Positions 1,443 to 48,150 of a stretch of DNA of 64,000 nucleotides are shown here, in pieces; positions within the stretch are counted from its first letter, which is position 1, and every line of letters begins with the position of its first letter. Position numbers and translations under genes: made by a program. This stretch comes from Escherichia coli (GTDB lineage: Bacteria > Pseudomonadota > Gammaproteobacteria > Enterobacterales > Enterobacteriaceae), in the NCBI RefSeq assembly GCF_044324785.1, contig NZ_CP172127.1; one strand, given 5' to 3'. A model generated the notes under the pieces. It did no database searches and had not been told where the DNA came from. It was given only the letters and a program-made list of their open reading frames with translations.

Positions 1443-3605
1443 ATGACAGAAAAAGTAAAACAACATGCCGCTCCGGTAACGGGCAGTGATGAAATCGATA
1501 TTGGTCGCCTGGTCGGCACCGTCATTGAAGCGCGCTGGTGGGTAATTGGCATCACCGCCGTATTCGCCCTCTGTGCCGTGGTTTACACCTTCTTCGCCAC
1601 GCCGATATACAGCGCCGACGCACTGGTACAAATCGAACAAAGCAGCGGCAATTCGCTGGTGCAGGATATCGGATCGGCATTAGCCAACAAACCGCCTGCA
1701 TCGGACGCCGAGATCCAGTTGATTCGTTCGCGTCTGGTGCTTGGTAAAACGGTGGACGATCTCGACCTCGATATTGCGGTGAGCAAAAACACGTTCCCGA
1801 TTTTCGGTGCGGGCTGGGATCGCCTGATGGGACGTCAGAACGAGACGGTAAAAGTGACCACCTTTAACCGTCCGAAAGAGATGGCGGATCAGGTGTTTAC
1901 GCTTAATGTGCTGGACAACAAAAACTACACCCTGAGCAGCGACGGCGGCTTTAGCGCCCGTGGGCAAGCGGGCCAGATGCTGAAAAAAGAAGGCGTCACA
2001 CTGATGGTTGAAGCCATTCACGCCAGCCCGGGCAGTGAGTTTACCGTCACCAAATACTCCACGCTGGGGATGATCAATCAACTGCAAAACAGCCTGACGG
2101 TAACGGAGAACGGCAAAGATGCTGGCGTTTTGAGCCTGACTTATACTGGAGAAGATCGCGAACAGATCCGCGACATTCTTAACAGTATCGCCCGTAACTA
2201 TCAGGAACAAAATATTGAGCGCAAATCGGCGGAAGCGTCGAAAAGCCTCGCTTTCCTCGCGCAACAGTTACCGGAAGTACGTAGCCGCCTCGATGTTGCC
2301 GAAAACAAACTGAATGCCTTCCGTCAGGATAAAGATTCAGTTGATCTGCCGCTGGAAGCGAAAGCGGTGCTCGATTCGATGGTGAACATCGACGCGCAGT
2401 TGAACGAACTGACCTTTAAAGAGGCGGAAATCTCCAAGCTGTACACCAAAGTTCACCCGGCGTACCGCACGCTGCTGGAGAAACGGCAGGCGCTGGAAGA
2501 CGAAAAAGCCAAACTTAATGGTCGCGTAACGGCGATGCCGAAAACCCAGCAGGAGATTGTGCGCCTGACCCGCGATGTCGAGTCTGGTCAGCAGGTCTAT
2601 ATGCAACTGCTGAATAAAGAGCAGGAGCTGAAAATCACCGAAGCCAGCACCGTCGGCGATGTGCGCATTGTTGACCCGGCAATCACTCAGCCTGGTGTGC
2701 TGAAACCGAAGAAAGGGTTGATTATCCTCGGTGCAATTATCCTCGGCCTGATGCTCTCTATCGTGGGTGTACTGCTGCGCTCGTTGTTTAATCGCGGCAT
2801 TGAAAGCCCGCAGGTGCTGGAAGAACATGGCATCAGCGTCTATGCCAGCATCCCGCTGTCGGAGTGGCAGAAAGCGCGCGATAGCGTCAAAACCATCAAA
2901 GGGGTTAAACGCTATAAACAGAGCCAGCTACTGGCGGTGGGGAATCCAACCGATCTGGCGATTGAAGCCATCCGTAGTCTGCGTACCAGTCTGCACTTCG
3001 CGATGATGCAGGCACAGAACAATGTGTTGATGATGACCGGGGTTAGCCCGTCAATCGGTAAAACCTTTGTCTGCGCCAACCTGGCGGCGGTGATCAGCCA
3101 GACCAATAAACGGGTGTTGTTGATCGACTGCGATATGCGCAAAGGCTACACCCACGAGCTGTTGGGCACCAATAACGTCAATGGCCTGTCGGAAATTCTG
3201 ATTGGTCAGGGCGATATTACTACCGCTGCTAAACCGACCTCTATTGCCAAATTTGACCTGATCCCGCGCGGTCAGGTACCGCCAAATCCTTCTGAACTCT
3301 TGATGAGCGAACGCTTTGCCGAACTGGTGAACTGGGCGAGTAAAAACTACGACCTGGTGTTGATTGATACGCCGCCGATTCTGGCAGTGACCGATGCGGC
3401 AATTGTTGGTCGTCATGTCGGAACCACGTTAATGGTGGCGCGTTATGCGGTCAACACATTGAAAGAAGTGGAAACCAGCCTGAGCCGCTTTGAGCAAAAC
3501 GGTATTCCGGTGAAAGGGGTGATTCTGAACTCCATCTTCCGCCGCGCCAGCGCGTATCAGGATTATGGCTATTACGAATACGAATATAAGTCGGATGCGA
3601 AATAA
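1443..3605 (+). CDS. wzc: Tyrosine autokinase / polysaccharide co-polymerase Wzc
   Basis: 720 aa from ATG at 1443 (MTEKVKQ...); C-terminal Tyr-rich tail YQDYGYYEYEYKSDAK; the track ORF at 1407 is a GTG-initiated upstream extension. Confidence 0.9.
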   Translation: MTEKVKQHAAPVTGSDEIDIGRLVGTVIEARWWVIGITAVFALCAVVYTFFATPIYSADALVQIEQSSGNSLVQDIGSALANKPPASDAEIQLIRSRLVLGKTVDDLDLDIAVSKNTFPIFGAGWDRLMGRQNETVKVTTFNRPKEMADQVFTLNVLDNKNYTLSSDGGFSARGQAGQMLKKEGVTLMVEAIHASPGSEFTVTKYSTLGMINQLQNSLTVTENGKDAGVLSLTYTGEDREQIRDILNSIARNYQEQNIERKSAEASKSLAFLAQQLPEVRSRLDVAENKLNAFRQDKDSVDLPLEAKAVLDSMVNIDAQLNELTFKEAEISKLYTKVHPAYRTLLEKRQALEDEKAKLNGRVTAMPKTQQEIVRLTRDVESGQQVYMQLLNKEQELKITEASTVGDVRIVDPAITQPGVLKPKKGLIILGAIILGLMLSIVGVLLRSLFNRGIESPQVLEEHGISVYASIPLSEWQKARDSVKTIKGVKRYKQSQLLAVGNPTDLAIEAIRSLRTSLHFAMMQAQNNVLMMTGVSPSIGKTFVCANLAAVISQTNKRVLLIDCDMRKGYTHELLGTNNVNGLSEILIGQGDITTAAKPTSIAKFDLIPRGQVPPNPSELLMSERFAELVNWASKNYDLVLIDTPPILAVTDAAIVGRHVGTTLMVARYAVNTLKEVETSLSRFEQNGIPVKGVILNSIFRRASAYQDYGYYEYEYKSDAK

Positions 3606-3611
3606 CGACGC

Positions 3612-3666
3612 CTGCATTCGCACCGCCCCGTAGGCCGGATAAGGCGTTCACGCCGCATCCGGCAAG
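3612..3666. repeat. REP (repetitive extragenic palindromic) element in the wzc-wcaA intergenic region
   Basis: gccccgtaggccggataaggcgttcacgccgcatccggcaag matches the enterobacterial REP consensus. Confidence 0.6.
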
Positions 3667-3697
3667 CAAACCAGCTCATAAGCCGGGAGAACAACCT

Positions 3698-4537
3698 ATG
3701 AAAGACAATCCGCTGATCTCAATCTATATGCCGACCTGGAACCGCCAACAACTGGCGATTCGGGCGATAAAATCGGTCCTGCGCCAGGACTATAACAACT
3801 GGGAGATGATCATCGTGGATGATTGCTCCACCTCCTGGGAACAACTCCAACAGTACGTCACCGCCCTCAACGATCCGCGTATCACCTACATTCACAACGA
3901 CATTAACAGCGGGGCGTGCGCGGTACGTAACCAGGCGATTATGCTGGCGCAAGGGGAATATATCACCGGGATCGATGATGATGATGAATGGACACCCAAC
4001 CGTCTGAGCGTCTTCCTCGCCCATAAACAGCAACTGGTCACACACGCCTTTTTGTACGCTAACGACTACGTTTGCCAGGGCGAGGTCTACTCCCAGCCGG
4101 CAAGTTTGCCGCTGTATCCCAAATCGCCGTATTCACGCCGCCTGTTCTACAAACGCAATATCATTGGCAATCAGGTCTTTACCTGGGCGTGGCGTTTCAA
4201 AGAGTGTTTGTTCGATACCGAACTGAAAGCGGCACAGGATTACGACATTTTCCTGCGGATGGTGGTGGAGTACGGCGAACCGTGGAAAGTAGAAGAGGCG
4301 ACGCAGATCCTGCATATCAATCACGGTGAAATGCAGATCACCTCGTCACCGAAAAAATTCTCCGGATACTTCCACTTTTACCGCAAGCACAAAGACAAAT
4401 TTGACCGCGCCAGCAAAAAATATCAGCTGTTTACCCTCTACCAGATCCGCAATAAACGCATGACCTGGCGCACTTTGCTGACGCTGCTGTCGGTGCGTAA
4501 CGGCAAACGTCTGGCTGATGGTATTCGGGGGCGCTAA
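3698..4537 (+). CDS. wcaA: Colanic acid glycosyltransferase WcaA (GT2 family)
   Basis: 279 aa, matches K-12 WcaA; conserved position. Confidence 0.9.
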   Translation: MKDNPLISIYMPTWNRQQLAIRAIKSVLRQDYNNWEMIIVDDCSTSWEQLQQYVTALNDPRITYIHNDINSGACAVRNQAIMLAQGEYITGIDDDDEWTPNRLSVFLAHKQQLVTHAFLYANDYVCQGEVYSQPASLPLYPKSPYSRRLFYKRNIIGNQVFTWAWRFKECLFDTELKAAQDYDIFLRMVVEYGEPWKVEEATQILHINHGEMQITSSPKKFSGYFHFYRKHKDKFDRASKKYQLFTLYQIRNKRMTWRTLLTLLSVRNGKRLADGIRGR

Positions 4538-4539
4538 AG

Positions 4540-5028
4540 ATGCTGGAAGATCTGCGCGCCAACAGCTGGAGTTTACGCCCGTGCTGCATGGTTCTTGCCT
4601 ATCGCGTTGCTCATTTTTGTTCGGTGTGGCGCAAAAAGAACGTCCTCAACAATATTTGGGCGGCCCCGCTGCTGGTGCTGTATCGCATTATCACCGAATG
4701 CTTTTTCGGTTATGAAATCCAGGCAGCCGCAACCATTGGTCGCCGTTTCACTATCCATCACGGCTATGCCGTAGTGATCAATAAAAACGTGGTCGCGGGG
4801 GATGATTTCACCATTCGCCACGGCGTCACTATCGGCAATCGTGGAGCCGATAACATGGCATGTCCACACATTGGCAACGGCGTCGAACTCGGTGCCAACG
4901 TTATTATTCTTGGTGATATCACGCTTGGTAACAATGTCACCGTGGGCGCGGGCAGCGTGGTGCTCGACTCTGTCCCGGACAACGCGCTGGTGGTGGGAGA
5001 AAAAGCGCGAGTGAAGGTAATTAAATGA
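4540..5028 (+). CDS. wcaB: Colanic acid acetyltransferase WcaB (hexapeptide-repeat family)
   Basis: 162 aa, matches K-12 WcaB. Confidence 0.9.
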   Translation: MLEDLRANSWSLRPCCMVLAYRVAHFCSVWRKKNVLNNIWAAPLLVLYRIITECFFGYEIQAAATIGRRFTIHHGYAVVINKNVVAGDDFTIRHGVTIGNRGADNMACPHIGNGVELGANVIILGDITLGNNVTVGAGSVVLDSVPDNALVVGEKARVKVIK

Positions 5029-43203: not shown

Positions 43204-44103
43204 TCACTCCATCATCTTCTCAATCGGCAGGACCAGGATTGAACTGGCACCCAGCGCTTTCAGTTTTTCCATCGTTTCCCAGAACAGGGTTTCGCTGCTG
43301 ACCATGTGCATCGCTACGCGCTGTTGATCACCCGCCAGCGGCAGAATGGTTGGGCGTTCGGCACCTGGCAGCAGGGCGATGACTTCATCCAGGCGTTCGG
43401 TCGGTGCGTGCATCATGATGTATTTTGATTCGCGCGCCTGGATCACACCCTGAATACGGGTCAGCAGTTTGTCGATCAGCTGCTGTTTAGATTCTTCCAT
43501 TTCTCCATCGCGCTGGATCAGGCAGGCTTTCGAGCGGTAGATAACTTCGACTTCGCGCAGGCCATTTGCTTCCAGCGTGGCACCGGTGGAAACCAGATCG
43601 CAAATCGCATCCGCCAGTCCGGCGCGCGGGGCGACTTCAACAGAACCGTTCAGTAAGCAGGATTTAAAAGAGATGCCTTTCTGGTCGAGATAACGCTTGA
43701 GCAGGTGAGGATAAGAGGTGGCGATACGTTTACCGTTTAAGGAGAGCGGACCGTCCCAGGCTTCATCAACCGGCGTTGCCAGCGAAAGGCGGCAGCCGCC
43801 GAAATCCAGTCGACGCAGGGTAAAGTAGCGCGGATCTTCACCCTGGGCGCGGCGGTTAAGCAGCTCTTCTTCCAGCACGTTTTCGCCGATAATCCCAAGG
43901 TCTACCACGCCGTCCATTACCAGACCGGGAATGTCGTCGTCACGCACGCGCAGAATATCAATCGGCATGTTTTCTGCCATCGCGATCAGGCGCTGGGTGT
44001 GAAGATTAATTTTAATGCCACAGCGCGCCAGTAATTCGCGTGAGTCATCACTTAAACGGCCGGATTTCTGCATAGCTATGCGTAAACGAGTGTTGTCTGT
44101 CAT
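43204..44103 (-). CDS. hisG: ATP phosphoribosyltransferase
   Basis: 299 aa from ATG at 44103 ([15 protein letters not shown]...); matches E. coli HisG. Confidence 0.95.
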
Positions 44104-44248
44104 TTTGTTATTCCTCTTTAAACCTGTCTGAACCGTTATCAACCGCGCAATAAAAAAGCCCCCGGAAGGTGATCTTCCGGGGGCTTTCTCATGCGTTCAT
44201 GCACCACTGGAAGATCTGAATGTCTTCCAGCACACATCGCCTGAAAGA
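44104..44248 (-). promoter_or_regulatory. his operon attenuator, including the rho-independent terminator hairpin (about 44150-44186)
   Basis: Between hisL and hisG; minus-strand hairpin agcccccggaag/cttccgggggct followed by TTTTTTATT. Confidence 0.85.
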
Positions 44249-44299
44249 CTAGTCAGGATGATGGTGATGATGGTGGTGTTTAAATTGAACGCGTGTCAT
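44249..44299 (-). CDS. hisL: his operon leader peptide
   Basis: Minus-strand ORF ATG ACA CGC GTT CAA TTT AAA CAC CAC CAT CAT CAC CAT CAT CCT GAC TAG = MTRVQFKHHHHHHHPD (seven consecutive His codons). Confidence 0.95.
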   Translation of the reverse strand: MTRVQFKHHHHHHHPD

Positions 44300-44519
44300 A
44301 AAAGTCTCTGTGAATGTTTATTCAACTGATGTCATTTAACCTAAACCACTTTCACGTTAGAAAGCAAGGGCTTTTTTATATATTTTATGGCGATGGATTT
44401 GTTTAATGAATGAGCGGGGAAAGGTGGGGGCCAGGAGTGACTACGTTAGAAAAGTAATCGTGAAAATATGTCTTTAAAACCCTCAAGAACATTGTGTTCT
44501 GTAACTAAAGTGGGCTTTG

Positions 44520-44620
44520 TTCCTGCCGGATGCGGCGTGAATGCCTTATCAGGTCTACAAATGTTGCCTAAATTCAATATATTGATGTTTTTGTAGGACT
44601 GATAAGCGGAGCGCATCAGT
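44520..44620. repeat. BIME-like pair of inverted REP elements in the hisL-yeeZ intergenic region
   Basis: gccggatgcggcgtgaatgccttatcaggtctac (44525-44558) and inverted partner gtaggactgataagcggagcgcatcag (44593-44619). Confidence 0.6.
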
Positions 44621-44725
44621 CAATGGTATATTTGCTAACAGTTTCGATTTCATTCATAGAATGAATTGTCAGTTTTGATACGCTAGCGTAGCCTTATAGA
44701 TCTAAGGTGTATCAGGAGATAACGG

Positions 44726-45550
44726 ATGAAAAAGGTCGCAATTGTCGGGTTAGGGTGGTTAGGCATGCCGCTGGCGATGTCACTTTCAGCGCGAGGCTGG
44801 CAAGTCACCGGGAGTAAAACCACACAAGATGGTGTCGAAGCGGCCCGAATGAGTGGCATTGATAGCTATCTGCTTCGCATGGAGCCTGAGTTAGTTTGCG
44901 ATTCTGACGATCTGGATGCCCTGATGGATGCCGATGCGCTGGTCATTACGCTTCCGGCACGTCGTAGCGGCCCCGGCGATGAGTTCTATTTACAAGCGGT
45001 ACAAGAGTTAGTGGATAGCGCGCTGGCCCATCGTATTCCCCGCATTATTTTTACCAGCTCAACATCTGTCTATGGCGACGCGCAAGGCACGGTGAAAGAA
45101 ACCACCCCGCGTAATCCGGTGACCAACAGTGGACGAGTATTAGAAGAACTCGAAGACTGGTTGCACAATTTACCCGGTACTTCGGTCGATATTCTGCGTC
45201 TTGCGGGCCTGGTCGGGCCGGGACGTCATCCCGGACGTTTCTTTGCCGGAAAAACCGCCCCTGATGGTGAACATGGTGTTAATTTAGTCCATTTAGAAGA
45301 TGTTATTGGCGCTATCACTCTGTTGTTACAGGCACCTAAAGGCGGACACATCTATAATATATGTGCGCCAGCTCACCCTGCGCGTAATGTTTTCTACCCG
45401 CAGATGGCCCGTTTACTGGGGCTGGAACCTCCGCAGTTCAGAAATAGTCTGGACAGCGGCAAAGGTAAGATTATTGATGGCAGTCGGATTTGTAATGAAC
45501 TGGGATTTGAATACCAGTATCCCGATCCGCTGGTAATGCCGCTGGAGTAA
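44726..45550 (+). CDS. yeeZ: NAD(P)-binding epimerase/dehydratase-family protein YeeZ
   Basis: 274 aa, matches K-12 YeeZ. Confidence 0.85.
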   Translation: MKKVAIVGLGWLGMPLAMSLSARGWQVTGSKTTQDGVEAARMSGIDSYLLRMEPELVCDSDDLDALMDADALVITLPARRSGPGDEFYLQAVQELVDSALAHRIPRIIFTSSTSVYGDAQGTVKETTPRNPVTNSGRVLEELEDWLHNLPGTSVDILRLAGLVGPGRHPGRFFAGKTAPDGEHGVNLVHLEDVIGAITLLLQAPKGGHIYNICAPAHPARNVFYPQMARLLGLEPPQFRNSLDSGKGKIIDGSRICNELGFEYQYPDPLVMPLE

Positions 45551-46525: not shown

Positions 46526-46791
46526 AGAAAAATTATTATGACAAGCCTCTCATTCTCTTGTCATTTCCCCCCCATTTAGGCACAATGCGCCGCTGTCAAA
46601 AAATGACTAAAAACCGACGTTTCATCAGCGTCGGTTATTTTTTGCTTCAAACCAATCATTCATACCAAGAGGCCGGGCTTCGTACCGGATAGATATTTAC
46701 TAAAAATCGACAGTTGTTGTCGCTGAGGAATCCAAAAAAATGGGGCAATTTTTTGCTTACGCGACGGTTATCACCGTAAAGGAGAATGACC

Positions 46792-48150
46792 ATGTCGCAT
46801 AACGTTACTCCAAACACCTCTCGCGTGGAATTGCGTAAAACGCTTACGTTAGTTCCGGTTGTAATGATGGGTCTTGCCTATATGCAGCCGATGACGCTGT
46901 TTGATACTTTTGGTATCGTTTCAGGCCTCACGGATGGTCATGTGCCGACAGCCTATGCGTTCGCATTGATTGCGATCCTGTTTACGGCTCTGAGCTACGG
47001 GAAGCTGGTTCGCCGCTATCCTTCTGCTGGCTCTGCATACACTTACGCCCAGAAATCCATTAGCCCGACTGTCGGCTTTATGGTGGGTTGGTCTTCTCTG
47101 CTCGACTATCTGTTCGCGCCGATGATCAACATTCTGCTGGCGAAAATCTATTTTGAAGCTCTGGTGCCTTCCATCCCATCGTGGATGTTTGTGGTGGCGC
47201 TGGTGGCCTTTATGACCGCCTTTAACCTGCGTAGTCTGAAATCCGTAGCGAACTTCAACACTGTAATCGTCGTGTTGCAGGTAGTGCTGATCGCGGTGAT
47301 TCTGGGCATGGTTGTTTATGGCGTATTTGAAGGTGAAGGCGCTGGTACGCTGGCGAGCACTCGTCCGTTCTGGTCTGGCGATGCGCATGTTATCCCGATG
47401 ATTACCGGGGCGACAATCCTGTGCTTCTCCTTTACCGGCTTTGACGGCATCAGCAACCTGTCGGAAGAAACCAAAGATGCAGAGCGCGTGATCCCGCGTG
47501 CGATTTTCCTGACCGCGCTGATCGGCGGCATGATCTTCATCTTTGCAACTTACTTCCTGCAACTGTATTTCCCGGATATCTCTCGCTTTAAAGATCCGGA
47601 TGCGTCACAGCCTGAAATCATGCTGTACGTTGCGGGTAAAGCGTTCCAGGTTGGCGCGCTGATCTTCTCCACCATTACCGTACTGGCGTCCGGTATGGCG
47701 GCGCACGCAGGCGTTGCGCGTCTGATGTACGTAATGGGGCGTGACGGTGTGTTCCCGAAAAGCTTCTTCGGTTATGTACACCCGAAATGGCGTACTCCGG
47801 CAATGAACATCATCCTGGTTGGCGCGATTGCCTTGCTGGCAATCAACTTCGACCTGGTAATGGCTACGGCGCTGATTAACTTTGGTGCGCTGGTGGCGTT
47901 CACCTTCGTTAACCTGTCGGTTATTTCGCAGTTCTGGATCCGTGAGAAGCGTAACAAGACGCTGAAAGATCACTTCCAGTATCTGTTCCTGCCGATGTGT
48001 GGTGCGCTGACCGTTGGTGCGCTGTGGGTTAACCTGGAAGAAAGCTCAATGGTTCTGGGTCTGATCTGGGCGGCTATCGGCCTGATTTACCTGGCTTGCG
48101 TCACCAAGAGCTTCCGTAACCCGGTTCCGCAGTACGAAGACGTTGCATAA
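46792..48150 (+). CDS. plaP: Low-affinity putrescine importer PlaP (APC superfamily)
   Basis: 452 aa from ATG at 46792 ([10 protein letters not shown]...); 12-TM amino acid permease fold; matches K-12 PlaP/YeeF. Confidence 0.9.

What the first reader, a model, noticed from the sequence alone, without database searches (positions are those of the whole stretch)
44300..44725. yefM-yoeB toxin-antitoxin module absent between hisL and yeeZ
In K-12 this intergenic position carries the yefM-yoeB type II toxin-antitoxin pair. Here the 426-bp interval has no ORF of that kind and instead holds a BIME-like pair of inverted REP elements. This is a presence/absence polymorphism at a known variable spot.
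Basis: partly seen in the sequence, partly recalled or inferred. Interest (0 to 1): 0.3.

Follow-up and report, generated by a model that had tools for sequence, protein, structure and literature searches.

The report
Toxin-antitoxin-free hisL–yeeZ spacer allele
This E. coli strain carries the common, already published version of the hisL–yeeZ spacer that lacks the yefM-yoeB toxin-antitoxin genes and has a short repeat element (a BIME-1) in their place, so the finding is correct but ordinary.

Summary
Window 44300-44725 is the 426-bp divergent spacer between hisL (-) and yeeZ (+). K-12 has yefM-yoeB at this site. The 64-kb window has no YefM or YoeB coding potential and no yefM operator.

It is a replacement, not a clean indel. 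Window 44443-44648 (206 bp) stands where K-12 has 648 bp (the yefM promoter and operator, yefM and yoeB). The flanks are 98-100% identical.

The 206 bp are a single-copy 80-bp stretch plus one BIME-1: a y REP, a 34-nt L linker with an IHF-like site, and an inverted z1 REP. The BIME-1 belongs to a repeat family with at least 40 places per E. coli genome.

Among 5,426 complete E. coli genomes, about 22% carry the window allele, including O157:H7 Sakai and EDL933 and a B-strain derivative. About 78% carry the toxin-antitoxin (TA) allele.

All 75 loci from other enterobacterial genera have a short hisL-yeeZ spacer (about 162-178 bp where hisL was located) with neither insert. E. albertii, E. coli strain E69 (divergent in this region) and two unnamed Escherichia species have the window allele. 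E. whittamii has the TA allele. The window allele is therefore probably the older Escherichia state.

Iguchi et al. 2011 already reported both the missing genes and the REPs at this site. Verdict: already known, low interest.

The parts
43204..44103 (-). hisG, the first structural gene of the his operon (flanking context)
   Evidence: The ORF list gives 43204..44142 from an upstream TTG. I take the start as the internal ATG at 44103 (MTDNTRL...). That protein is 92-100% identical to HisG in 79 of the 80 related loci.
44150..44273 (-). His operon leader (attenuator) RNA
   Evidence: Rfam RF00514 His_leader, 131.6 bits against a gathering score of 49, E 1.6e-23, full-length match.
44249..44299 (-). 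hisL leader peptide gene (MTRVQFKHHHHHHHPD plus stop)
   Evidence: tblastn of K-12 HisL: 16 of 16 residues identical at 44299..44252.
44300..44379 (-). hisL-proximal part of the spacer, conserved across Enterobacteriaceae; presumed his promoter and upstream A/T tract
   Evidence: It aligns with Citrobacter, Salmonella, Leclercia and Pseudenterobacter spacers up to '...GCAAGGGCTTTTTT'. The promoter assignment is inference from position; the scan did not flag it.
44380..44442 (.). Escherichia-specific segment shared by both alleles (TA-bearing and TA-free); its end is the left breakpoint
   Evidence: It is present in K-12, E. whittamii and all window-type alleles and absent from other genera. 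The BLAST match to K-12 ends at 44442.
44443..44648 (.). Allele-specific 206-bp segment that stands where K-12 has the 648-bp yefM-yoeB cassette
   Evidence: It has no similarity to K-12. It is present at 80% coverage or more in 1,196 of 5,426 complete E. coli genomes. It is 88.8-98% identical in E. albertii, Escherichia sp. E1V33, sp. MOD1-EC7003 and E. coli E69.
44443..44522 (.). Single-copy, non-repeat part of the allele-specific segment; function unknown; contains a small hairpin AGAACATTGTGTTCT
   Evidence: Sensitive blastn of 44436-44522 finds exactly one place per genome in 1,198 genomes and no other locus. No annotated feature lies under it in RefSeq. No Rfam match.
44525..44558 (+). 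y-type REP (iREP orientation, ends in CTAC): the left arm of the BIME-1
   Evidence: It matches GCCGGATGCGGCGTGAACGCCTTATCCGGCCTAC with 3 mismatches, against 0 expected by chance. It aligns with the K-12 cmoB-torZ BIME.
44559..44592 (.). 34-nt L linker of the BIME-1, with an IHF-consensus-like palindromic site at 44572-44587 (ATTCAATATATTGATG)
   Evidence: The core AATTCAATATATTG is shared with the cmoB-torZ BIME. WATCAANNNNTTR matches on both strands with one mismatch each, but the motif alone is uninformative: 96 matches in the window against about 72 expected. IHF binding was not tested.
44593..44622 (+). z1-type REP (begins with GTAG), inverted relative to the y REP: the right arm of the BIME-1
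   Evidence: Inverted-repeat pairs I1 and I5. It aligns with TGTAGGCCTGATAAGC..GCGCATCAGGCA of the cmoB-torZ BIME. The sequence is listed.
44649..44725 (+). yeeZ-proximal part of the spacer, shared by both alleles and partly by other genera; includes the dyad ATTCATTCATAGAATGAAT and a possible yeeZ promoter
   Evidence: 100% identical to K-12. 'ATGAATTGTCAG...GCGTAGCCTTAT...CAGGAGA' is conserved in outgroups. The promoter-like match CTAACA-16-TAGAAT at 44635-44662 straddles the right breakpoint, but 3 sites found against 1.4 expected is not significant.
44726..45550 (+). yeeZ (SDR-family oxidoreductase / putative epimerase), flanking gene
   Evidence: ORF listed. 99% nucleotide identity to K-12 yeeZ. 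RefSeq annotation of matching genomes.

Best explanation
The window carries the TA-free haplotype of a two-allele locus in the divergent hisL-yeeZ spacer of Escherichia.

Shown. Other enterobacterial genera have a short spacer (about 162-178 bp where hisL was located) that holds only the sequence next to hisL and the sequence next to yeeZ. In Escherichia the middle of this spacer is expanded, and two mutually exclusive fillings exist with identical breakpoints. One is a 206-bp segment made of about 80 bp of unique sequence plus one BIME-1 (y REP, L linker, z1 REP); this is the window allele, found in about 22% of complete E. coli genomes. The other is a 648-bp self-contained yefM-yoeB cassette with its own promoter and operator, found in about 78%.

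Inferred. The 206-bp/BIME allele is the older state in the genus. The TA cassette replaced it once, because all TA alleles share the same junctions. Both alleles have since been passed around by homologous recombination through the conserved flanks, in the recombination-prone his-O-antigen region.

Consequences for this strain. It has no YefM-YoeB at this site, so it lacks Lon-dependent YoeB mRNA cleavage from this locus and any read-through transcription from the yefM promoter into yeeZ. yeeZ must therefore rely on its own proximal promoter. The BIME-1 sits between the two divergent promoters. By analogy with other BIME-1 elements it may bind IHF, but no function at this site is shown.
For: Gene order in K-12.

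Breakpoints at window 44442/44443 and 44648/44649, against K-12 2089854 and 2089205.

No YefM or YoeB coding potential, operator or Pfam domain in the interval.

Allele counts: 4,212 genomes hold the cassette, 1,196-1,198 hold the 206-bp segment, and together they account for 99.7% of 5,426 genomes.

BIME-1 identity: REP consensus match, end-to-end alignment with the cmoB-torZ BIME, at least 40 places per genome in 5,425 of 5,426 genomes, and the definition of BIME-1 in PMC3333891.

Outgroups: 75 non-Escherichia loci have hisG about 360 bp from yeeZ, with hisL about 162-178 bp from yeeZ where it was located, and no YefM or YoeB.

E. albertii, Escherichia sp. E1V33, sp. MOD1-EC7003 and E. coli E69 have the window allele. 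The 206-bp segment is 88.8% identical in E. albertii, in line with the flanking genes there (yeeZ 92%, yeeY 86%).

E. whittamii has the TA allele with the same junctions as K-12.

Literature: PMC3158064, PMC10790755, PMC5120126.
Against: The direction of the replacement is not proven. Both alleles are old. The cassette differs by up to 4.6% within E. coli, and its non-coding part differs by 11% between K-12 and E. whittamii. The reverse history, TA first and then replaced by the 206 bp, needs the same number of events.

E. fergusonii was not sampled.

No mechanistic signature was found at the junctions: no target duplication and no IS or integrase remnant. The source of the unique 80 bp is unknown.

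The effects on yeeZ expression and any IHF binding are inferences only. The promoter scan is not above background.
Confidence: 0.85

Rival explanations
1. The window allele is derived. An ancestor carried yefM-yoeB here, and the cassette was later deleted and replaced by, or overwritten with, the 206-bp BIME-containing segment. This would be loss of a chromosomal TA system, as described for ccdO157 decay.
For: The TA allele is the majority in E. coli at 78%. It is also found in another Escherichia species, E. whittamii. The cassette is diverse, at 95.4-100% identity, so it is not a recent arrival. BIMEs are a recognised source of intergenic indels (Bachellier et al. 1997, cited in PMC3158064).
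Against: Four of the five non-K-12-like Escherichia lineages sampled have the 206-bp allele, including E. albertii. Its divergence there (11%) matches species-level divergence of the flanks. This is most simply explained by vertical descent from the Escherichia ancestor. There is no remnant of yefM or yoeB in the window allele. No genus outside Escherichia has the TA at this site.
Confidence: 0.25
2. The BIME-1-containing segment is a functional regulatory module maintained by selection. It might act as an IHF-dependent architectural element or a supercoiling insulator between the divergent his and yeeZ promoters. On this reading the two alleles are a balanced polymorphism with different yeeZ or his regulation.
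For: Both alleles persist at appreciable frequency and across species. The BIME-1 L linker keeps an IHF-like site. REPs and BIMEs are reported to bind IHF and gyrase and to act as topological insulators (PMC3333891). A promoter-like match straddles the right junction only in this allele.
Against: There are no expression or binding data. The IHF motif is low-information, with 96 matches against about 72 expected. The promoter scan is at background. The 206-bp segment evolves about as fast as neutral sequence (88.8% in E. albertii). Persistence of both alleles is expected anyway next to the highly recombining O-antigen region.
Confidence: 0.1
3. The apparent absence is an assembly or collapse artefact in the sequence from which the window was taken.
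For: One public record (HH97, NZ_CP116409) shows an interleaved mixture of both alleles at this site that looks like a consensus artefact. Errors at this locus therefore do occur.
Against: The window's 951 bp around the site are 100% identical to a complete genome, strain N3. The same allele is found in about 1,198 independent complete genomes, including Sakai and EDL933, and in other Escherichia species.
Confidence: 0.01

Closest known systems
Published yefM-yoeB presence/absence at yeeZ-hisL in E. coli (Iguchi et al. 2011, PLoS One, PMC3158064). Also the uneven distribution of type II TA systems among phylogroups (Fiedoruk et al. 2015), horizontal transfer of chromosomal TA cassettes into intergenic regions (Ramisetty & Santhosh 2016) and YoeB absent from ST11 (PMC10790755).
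   Same: Same locus, same two states and the same observation of REP sequences in the yeeZ-hisL spacer. O157:H7 Sakai and EDL933 carry the window's allele.
   Different: Nothing essential. Added here are exact breakpoints, the 206-bp versus 648-bp replacement, allele frequencies in 5,426 genomes, BIME-1 typing and the outgroup comparison. I could not read Fiedoruk 2015 or Ramisetty & Santhosh 2016, so some of this may already be in print.
BIME-1 (also called RIP/RIB): a single y REP, L linker with IHF site, and z1 REP (Bachellier/Gilson classification, as summarised in Ton-Hoang et al. 2012, PMC3333891).
   Same: A y REP and a z1 REP in inverse orientation. A single unit at the locus. A 34-nt linker sharing the conserved AATTCAATATATTG core. 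A dispersed family with many copies per genome.
   Different: Both REPs are somewhat degenerate: 3 mismatches in y, and A and T substitutions in the z1 stem. IHF binding is untested.
ccdO157 at folA-apaH (Mine et al. 2009, cited in PMC7167474): a chromosomal TA cassette present in some E. coli and replaced by a short spacer in K-12.
   Same: A small self-contained type II TA cassette that is polymorphic within an otherwise conserved core intergenic region.
   Different: A different TA family and locus. Here K-12 is the carrier, and the TA-free allele contains unrelated sequence with a BIME rather than a minimal spacer. The details of ccdO157 are from my own knowledge, not tested here.

Membership tests
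YefM-YoeB type II toxin-antitoxin module | An ORF encoding a YefM (Phd/YefM family) antitoxin | tested here: not met
   tblastn of K-12 YefM: best E about 1 in the 64-kb window and nothing in the interval. The interval ORFs have no Pfam match at or above threshold.
YefM-YoeB type II toxin-antitoxin module | An ORF encoding a YoeB (RelE-superfamily) toxin immediately downstream of, and overlapping, the antitoxin gene | tested here: not met
   tblastn of K-12 YoeB: best E about 0.7 in the window and nothing significant in the interval. No Pfam match at or above threshold.
YefM-YoeB type II toxin-antitoxin module | Autoregulated promoter with TGTACA-containing operator palindromes upstream of yefM | tested here: not met
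   There is no TGTACA in 44300-44725 and no paired TGTACA anywhere in the window. K-12 has TTGTACAATGAACTGTACAA in the cassette.
BIME-1 (REP pair with L linker) | One y-type REP | tested here: met
   44525-44558 matches the y consensus with 3 mismatches, against 0 expected by chance.
BIME-1 (REP pair with L linker) | One z1-type REP in inverse orientation to the y REP | tested here: met
   44593-44622 begins with GTAG. It aligns with the z1 REP of the K-12 cmoB-torZ BIME and is complementary to the y REP foot.
BIME-1 (REP pair with L linker) | A long, conserved L linker between the REPs, frequently carrying an IHF site; a single unit per locus | tested here: met
   A 34-nt linker with the conserved AATTCAATATATTG core and an IHF-like site with one mismatch on each strand. 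Only one unit is present. The definition is from PMC3333891.
BIME-1 (REP pair with L linker) | Member of a dispersed intergenic repeat family in the same genome | tested here: met
BIME-1 (REP pair with L linker) | Actual binding of IHF to the L linker | not testable with these tools
   Needs a gel-shift, footprint or ChIP experiment.
His operon leader / attenuator (flank) | Match to the Rfam His_leader covariance model above the gathering score, with a His-rich leader peptide | tested here: met
   131.6 bits against 49. HisL has 7 consecutive His codons.

The most novel reading that the evidence does not exclude
The two spacer alleles (a BIME-1/IHF-site segment versus an autoregulated yefM-yoeB operon reading towards yeeZ) are an ancient polymorphism shared across Escherichia species and maintained by selection, because they wire yeeZ-yeeY and/or his expression differently. 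It would then not be a neutral by-product of recombination next to the O-antigen locus.
Probability: 0.07. Interest if true: 0.35.

Novelty: already known. Interest (0 to 1): 0.08.

Why it matters
It matters little beyond bookkeeping. It tells an annotator that this strain, like O157:H7 and B-type strains, naturally lacks YefM-YoeB, so TA-related phenotypes reported for K-12 do not transfer to it.

It also shows that the 'empty' site is not empty. The site holds a different, probably older, filling with a BIME-1. It is a tidy example of a chromosomal TA cassette behaving as an exchangeable intergenic allele, and of BIMEs marking variable spacers. Both are established ideas.

Tried and rejected
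(1) I looked for a decayed yefM-yoeB remnant in the interval and the whole window, using tblastn with word size 2 and E up to 1000, and Pfam on every ORF of 23 aa or more. Nothing was found.

(2) I looked for a structured RNA or sRNA in the spacer. Only sub-threshold REP-related hits appeared (naRNA4 at 18.7 bits against a gathering score of 59.5). I rejected them.

(3) I looked for other copies of the unique 80-bp part, to find its source. It is single-copy and occurs only at this locus.

(4) I looked for a mobility signature at the junctions: direct repeats, or IS or integrase remnants. Only short chance-level repeats turned up. The exceptions are a 5-nt AACAG shared near the right junction and, in K-12, a 23-bp palindrome at the left junction. 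Neither is diagnostic.

(5) I considered HH97 as a 'decaying TA' third allele. I rejected this because the sequence is an interleaved mixture of both alleles, which is probably a consensus artefact.

(6) The promoter and terminator scan gave 3 promoter-like sites against 1.4 expected and no terminators, so it is not informative.

(7) I tried to read Ramisetty & Santhosh 2016 by PubMed id. It is not held.

(8) Third-codon-position divergence of the cassette against yeeZ between K-12 and E. whittamii (5% versus 17%) hints that the cassette was exchanged more recently than the flanks. It is too little data to settle the polarity.

Full report
**1. What is at the coordinates.**
Window 44300-44725 is exactly the spacer between the start codon of hisL and the start codon of yeeZ. 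hisL lies on the minus strand at 44249-44299, and its peptide MTRVQFKHHHHHHHPD is 16/16 identical to K-12. yeeZ lies on the plus strand and starts at 44726. The spacer is 426 bp with 38% G+C. Downstream of hisL on the minus strand lie the His leader RNA (Rfam RF00514, 131.6 bits) and hisG. Beyond yeeZ lie yeeY and plaP. The order is the same as in K-12.

**2.
The K-12 MG1655 record lists plaP, yoeI, yeeY, yeeZ, yoeB, yefM and then hisL, hisG, so yefM-yoeB does occupy this spacer in K-12. I translated YefM and YoeB from that record and searched the window with tblastn.
- The best chance-level hits in 64 kb have E about 0.7-1, and nothing lies in the interval.
- The interval has no TGTACA operator motif.
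- None of its six small ORFs (23-56 aa, two of them running through the REPs) has a Pfam match at or above threshold.
- RefSeq annotates no gene under this segment in any matching genome.

**3. Not a simple indel.**
BLAST and MAFFT against K-12 give these relationships:
- Window 44000-44442 equals K-12 2090295-2089854 (98.4% identity).
- Window 44649-45000 equals K-12 2089205-2088854 (99.7% identity).
- Between them, window 44443-44648 (206 bp) and K-12 2089206-2089853 (648 bp) are unrelated.

The K-12 segment contains 140 bp of yefM upstream sequence with the operator palindromes, then yefM and yoeB, and ends 5 bp after the yoeB stop codon.

Comparing several alleles places the left breakpoint after '...GCTAAGAG(T)GACT'. 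The right breakpoint is near 'AACAG', followed by a 6-7-nt difference before the shared 'TTCATTCATAGAATG'. All TA alleles examined (K-12, E. whittamii) share one pair of junctions. All TA-free alleles share the other pair. This points to a single historical replacement event.

**4. What the 206 bp are.**
The right half is a BIME.
- 44525-44558 matches the y-REP consensus with 3 mismatches. Shuffles give 0 matches, and a perfect copy lies elsewhere in the window at 3630-3663.
- 44593-44622 is an inverted REP that begins with GTAG.
- The two REPs are separated by a 34-nt linker.
- The whole unit aligns end to end with the BIME between cmoB and torZ of K-12: y REP, then 'AATTCAATATATTG'-containing linker, then z1 REP.
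- As single-stranded DNA it folds better than all 200 shuffles (z = -3.5).

By the published definition, BIME-1 is a single unit of one y and one z1 REP separated by a long, conserved L linker that often carries an IHF site (PMC3333891). This element is a BIME-1. The IHF-like site at 44572-44587 has one mismatch on each strand, but the motif alone carries little information, and binding is untested.

The left 80 bp (44443-44522) are different. They are single-copy, occur only at this locus in 1,198 genomes, have no Rfam match and have no known function.

**5. Population picture.**
Counts among 5,426 complete E. coli genomes:

| Allele | Genomes | Notes |
|---|---|---|
| 648-bp yefM-yoeB cassette | 4,212 | always chromosomal, almost always one place per genome, 95.4-100% identical to K-12 |
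| 206-bp window segment | 1,196-1,198 | 96.6-100% identical to the window |

The two classes together account for 99.7% of genomes. Carriers of the window allele include O157:H7 Sakai and EDL933 and a T7Express (B-strain) derivative. The window is 100% identical over 951 bp to strain N3.

Two rare exceptions were seen.
- Strain MEI4BO-21 has a short 178-bp spacer and 85%-identical flanks, and lacks yeeY. This looks like an imported segment.
- Strain HH97 has a 649-bp spacer that is an interleaved mixture of both alleles, most likely a consensus artefact.

**6. Outgroups and polarity.**
A scan of one genome per species for YeeZ relatives returned 80 loci.
- In all 75 non-Escherichia loci (Citrobacter, Salmonella, Enterobacter, Klebsiella, Raoultella, Kluyvera, Leclercia and others), hisG lies about 360 bp from yeeZ. 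Where hisL was located it lies about 162-178 bp from yeeZ. There is no YefM or YoeB.
- These short spacers align with window 44300-44379 (next to hisL) and with roughly 44655-44725 (next to yeeZ).
- Both E. coli alleles are therefore Escherichia-specific expansions of the same short ancestral spacer. They share the extra piece 44380-44442.
- Within Escherichia, E. albertii, sp. E1V33, sp. MOD1-EC7003 and the divergent E. coli E69 carry the window-type allele. E. whittamii carries the TA allele, with YefM and YoeB 100% identical in protein to K-12.
- The 206-bp segment is 88.8% identical between the window and E. albertii. This is comparable to the flanking genes there (yeeZ 92%, yeeY 86%) and is what vertical descent from the common ancestor would give.

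I therefore infer, with about 60-70% confidence, that the BIME-containing allele is the older one and that the TA cassette replaced it.

This is not proven, because the cassette is also old.
- It differs by up to 4.6% within E. coli.
- Its non-coding part differs by 11% between K-12 and E. whittamii.
- Its coding part shows only 9 synonymous differences between those two, against 56 differences in yeeZ.

This pattern suggests exchange between lineages. E. fergusonii was not among the loci returned.

**7. How it works.**
The polymorphic segment sits between the two divergent core promoters, which are retained in both alleles.

In K-12 the cassette is a self-contained, autoregulated operon pointing towards yeeZ, with only 82 bp before yeeZ. 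Others have suggested co-transcription of yeeZ with it (PMC5120126).

In the window allele there is no such upstream operon, so yeeZ must depend on its proximal promoter. A consensus-level match, CTAACA-16-TAGAAT, straddles the right junction, but it is not above background.

The BIME-1 may bind IHF, as other BIME-1 elements do. That is an inference by analogy only.

The maintenance and spread of both alleles is most simply explained by homologous recombination through the conserved flanks in the his-gnd-O-antigen region. That region is known for frequent exchange (PMC3158064).

**8. Comparison with what is known.**
The finding is already published.
- Iguchi et al. [quoted passage not shown] They also report REP sequences in the yeeZ-hisL spacer that are involved in indels.
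- A 2023 survey (PMC10790755) found YoeB absent from ST11.
- Reviews cite Fiedoruk et al. 2015 and Ramisetty & Santhosh 2016 for the uneven distribution of chromosomal TA cassettes and their horizontal transfer into core intergenic regions.

Added here: exact breakpoints, the replacement nature of the polymorphism, BIME-1 typing, allele frequencies and the outgroup comparison.

**9. Verdict.**
It is an ordinary, already described presence/absence (strictly, replacement) polymorphism. Interest is low.

Noticed in passing
L085 (NZ_CP116409.1, E. coli HH97) 2325-2973: The hisL-yeeZ spacer of this 'complete' genome is 649 bp and reads as an interleaved mixture of the TA allele and the BIME allele. 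For example, window-type 'AAGTAATCGTGAAAATA' is followed directly by the K-12 yefM operator 'GTTAATTAACGC.CATCATTGTACAATGAACTGTACAAAAG'. It is probably a consensus or polishing artefact from mixed reads rather than a real third allele.
   Followed up: partly
L084 (NZ_CM149565.1, E. coli MEI4BO-21, soil) 2679-4087: This record has a short 178-bp hisL-yeeZ spacer like other genera. It is only about 85% identical to the window in the hisG-hisL region that matched, and has no yeeY between yeeZ and plaP. The his-yeeZ segment looks imported from a non-E. coli relative, or the strain is misassigned.
   Followed up: partly
L001 (K-12) about 4833-4855, at the left junction of the yefM-yoeB cassette: In K-12 the left junction forms a perfect 23-bp palindrome, GCTAAGAGGAC-T-GTCCTCTTAGC. 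Its left arm is shared with the TA-free alleles of E. albertii and sp. MOD1-EC7003 (GCTAAGAGTGACT), and its right arm begins the cassette-specific DNA. The palindrome is less perfect in E. whittamii. It might be a trace of how the junction formed, or it might be chance.
   Followed up: no
window 44650-44668: The dyad ATTCATTC-ATA-GAATGAAT lies just upstream of yeeZ and overlaps a TAGAAT -10-like hexamer. It is shared by both alleles in Escherichia. It could be an operator, perhaps for the adjacent LysR-type YeeY. This was not examined.
   Followed up: no
window 3630-3663 (-): A perfect copy of the y-REP consensus (0 mismatches) lies elsewhere in the window.
   Followed up: no
L002 (CP089930.1, E. 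coli E69): This strain, labelled E. coli, has yeeZ only 94.5% and yeeY about 94% identical to both K-12 and the window, so it is as distant as the unnamed Escherichia species. Its hisL start region also differs (CGCGTACCAT), and tblastn did not recover HisL there.
   Followed up: no
window 46740-46802 (+): A 20-aa ORF ([20 protein letters not shown]) overlaps the start of plaP. It corresponds in position to the annotated small protein gene yoeI of K-12.
   Followed up: no
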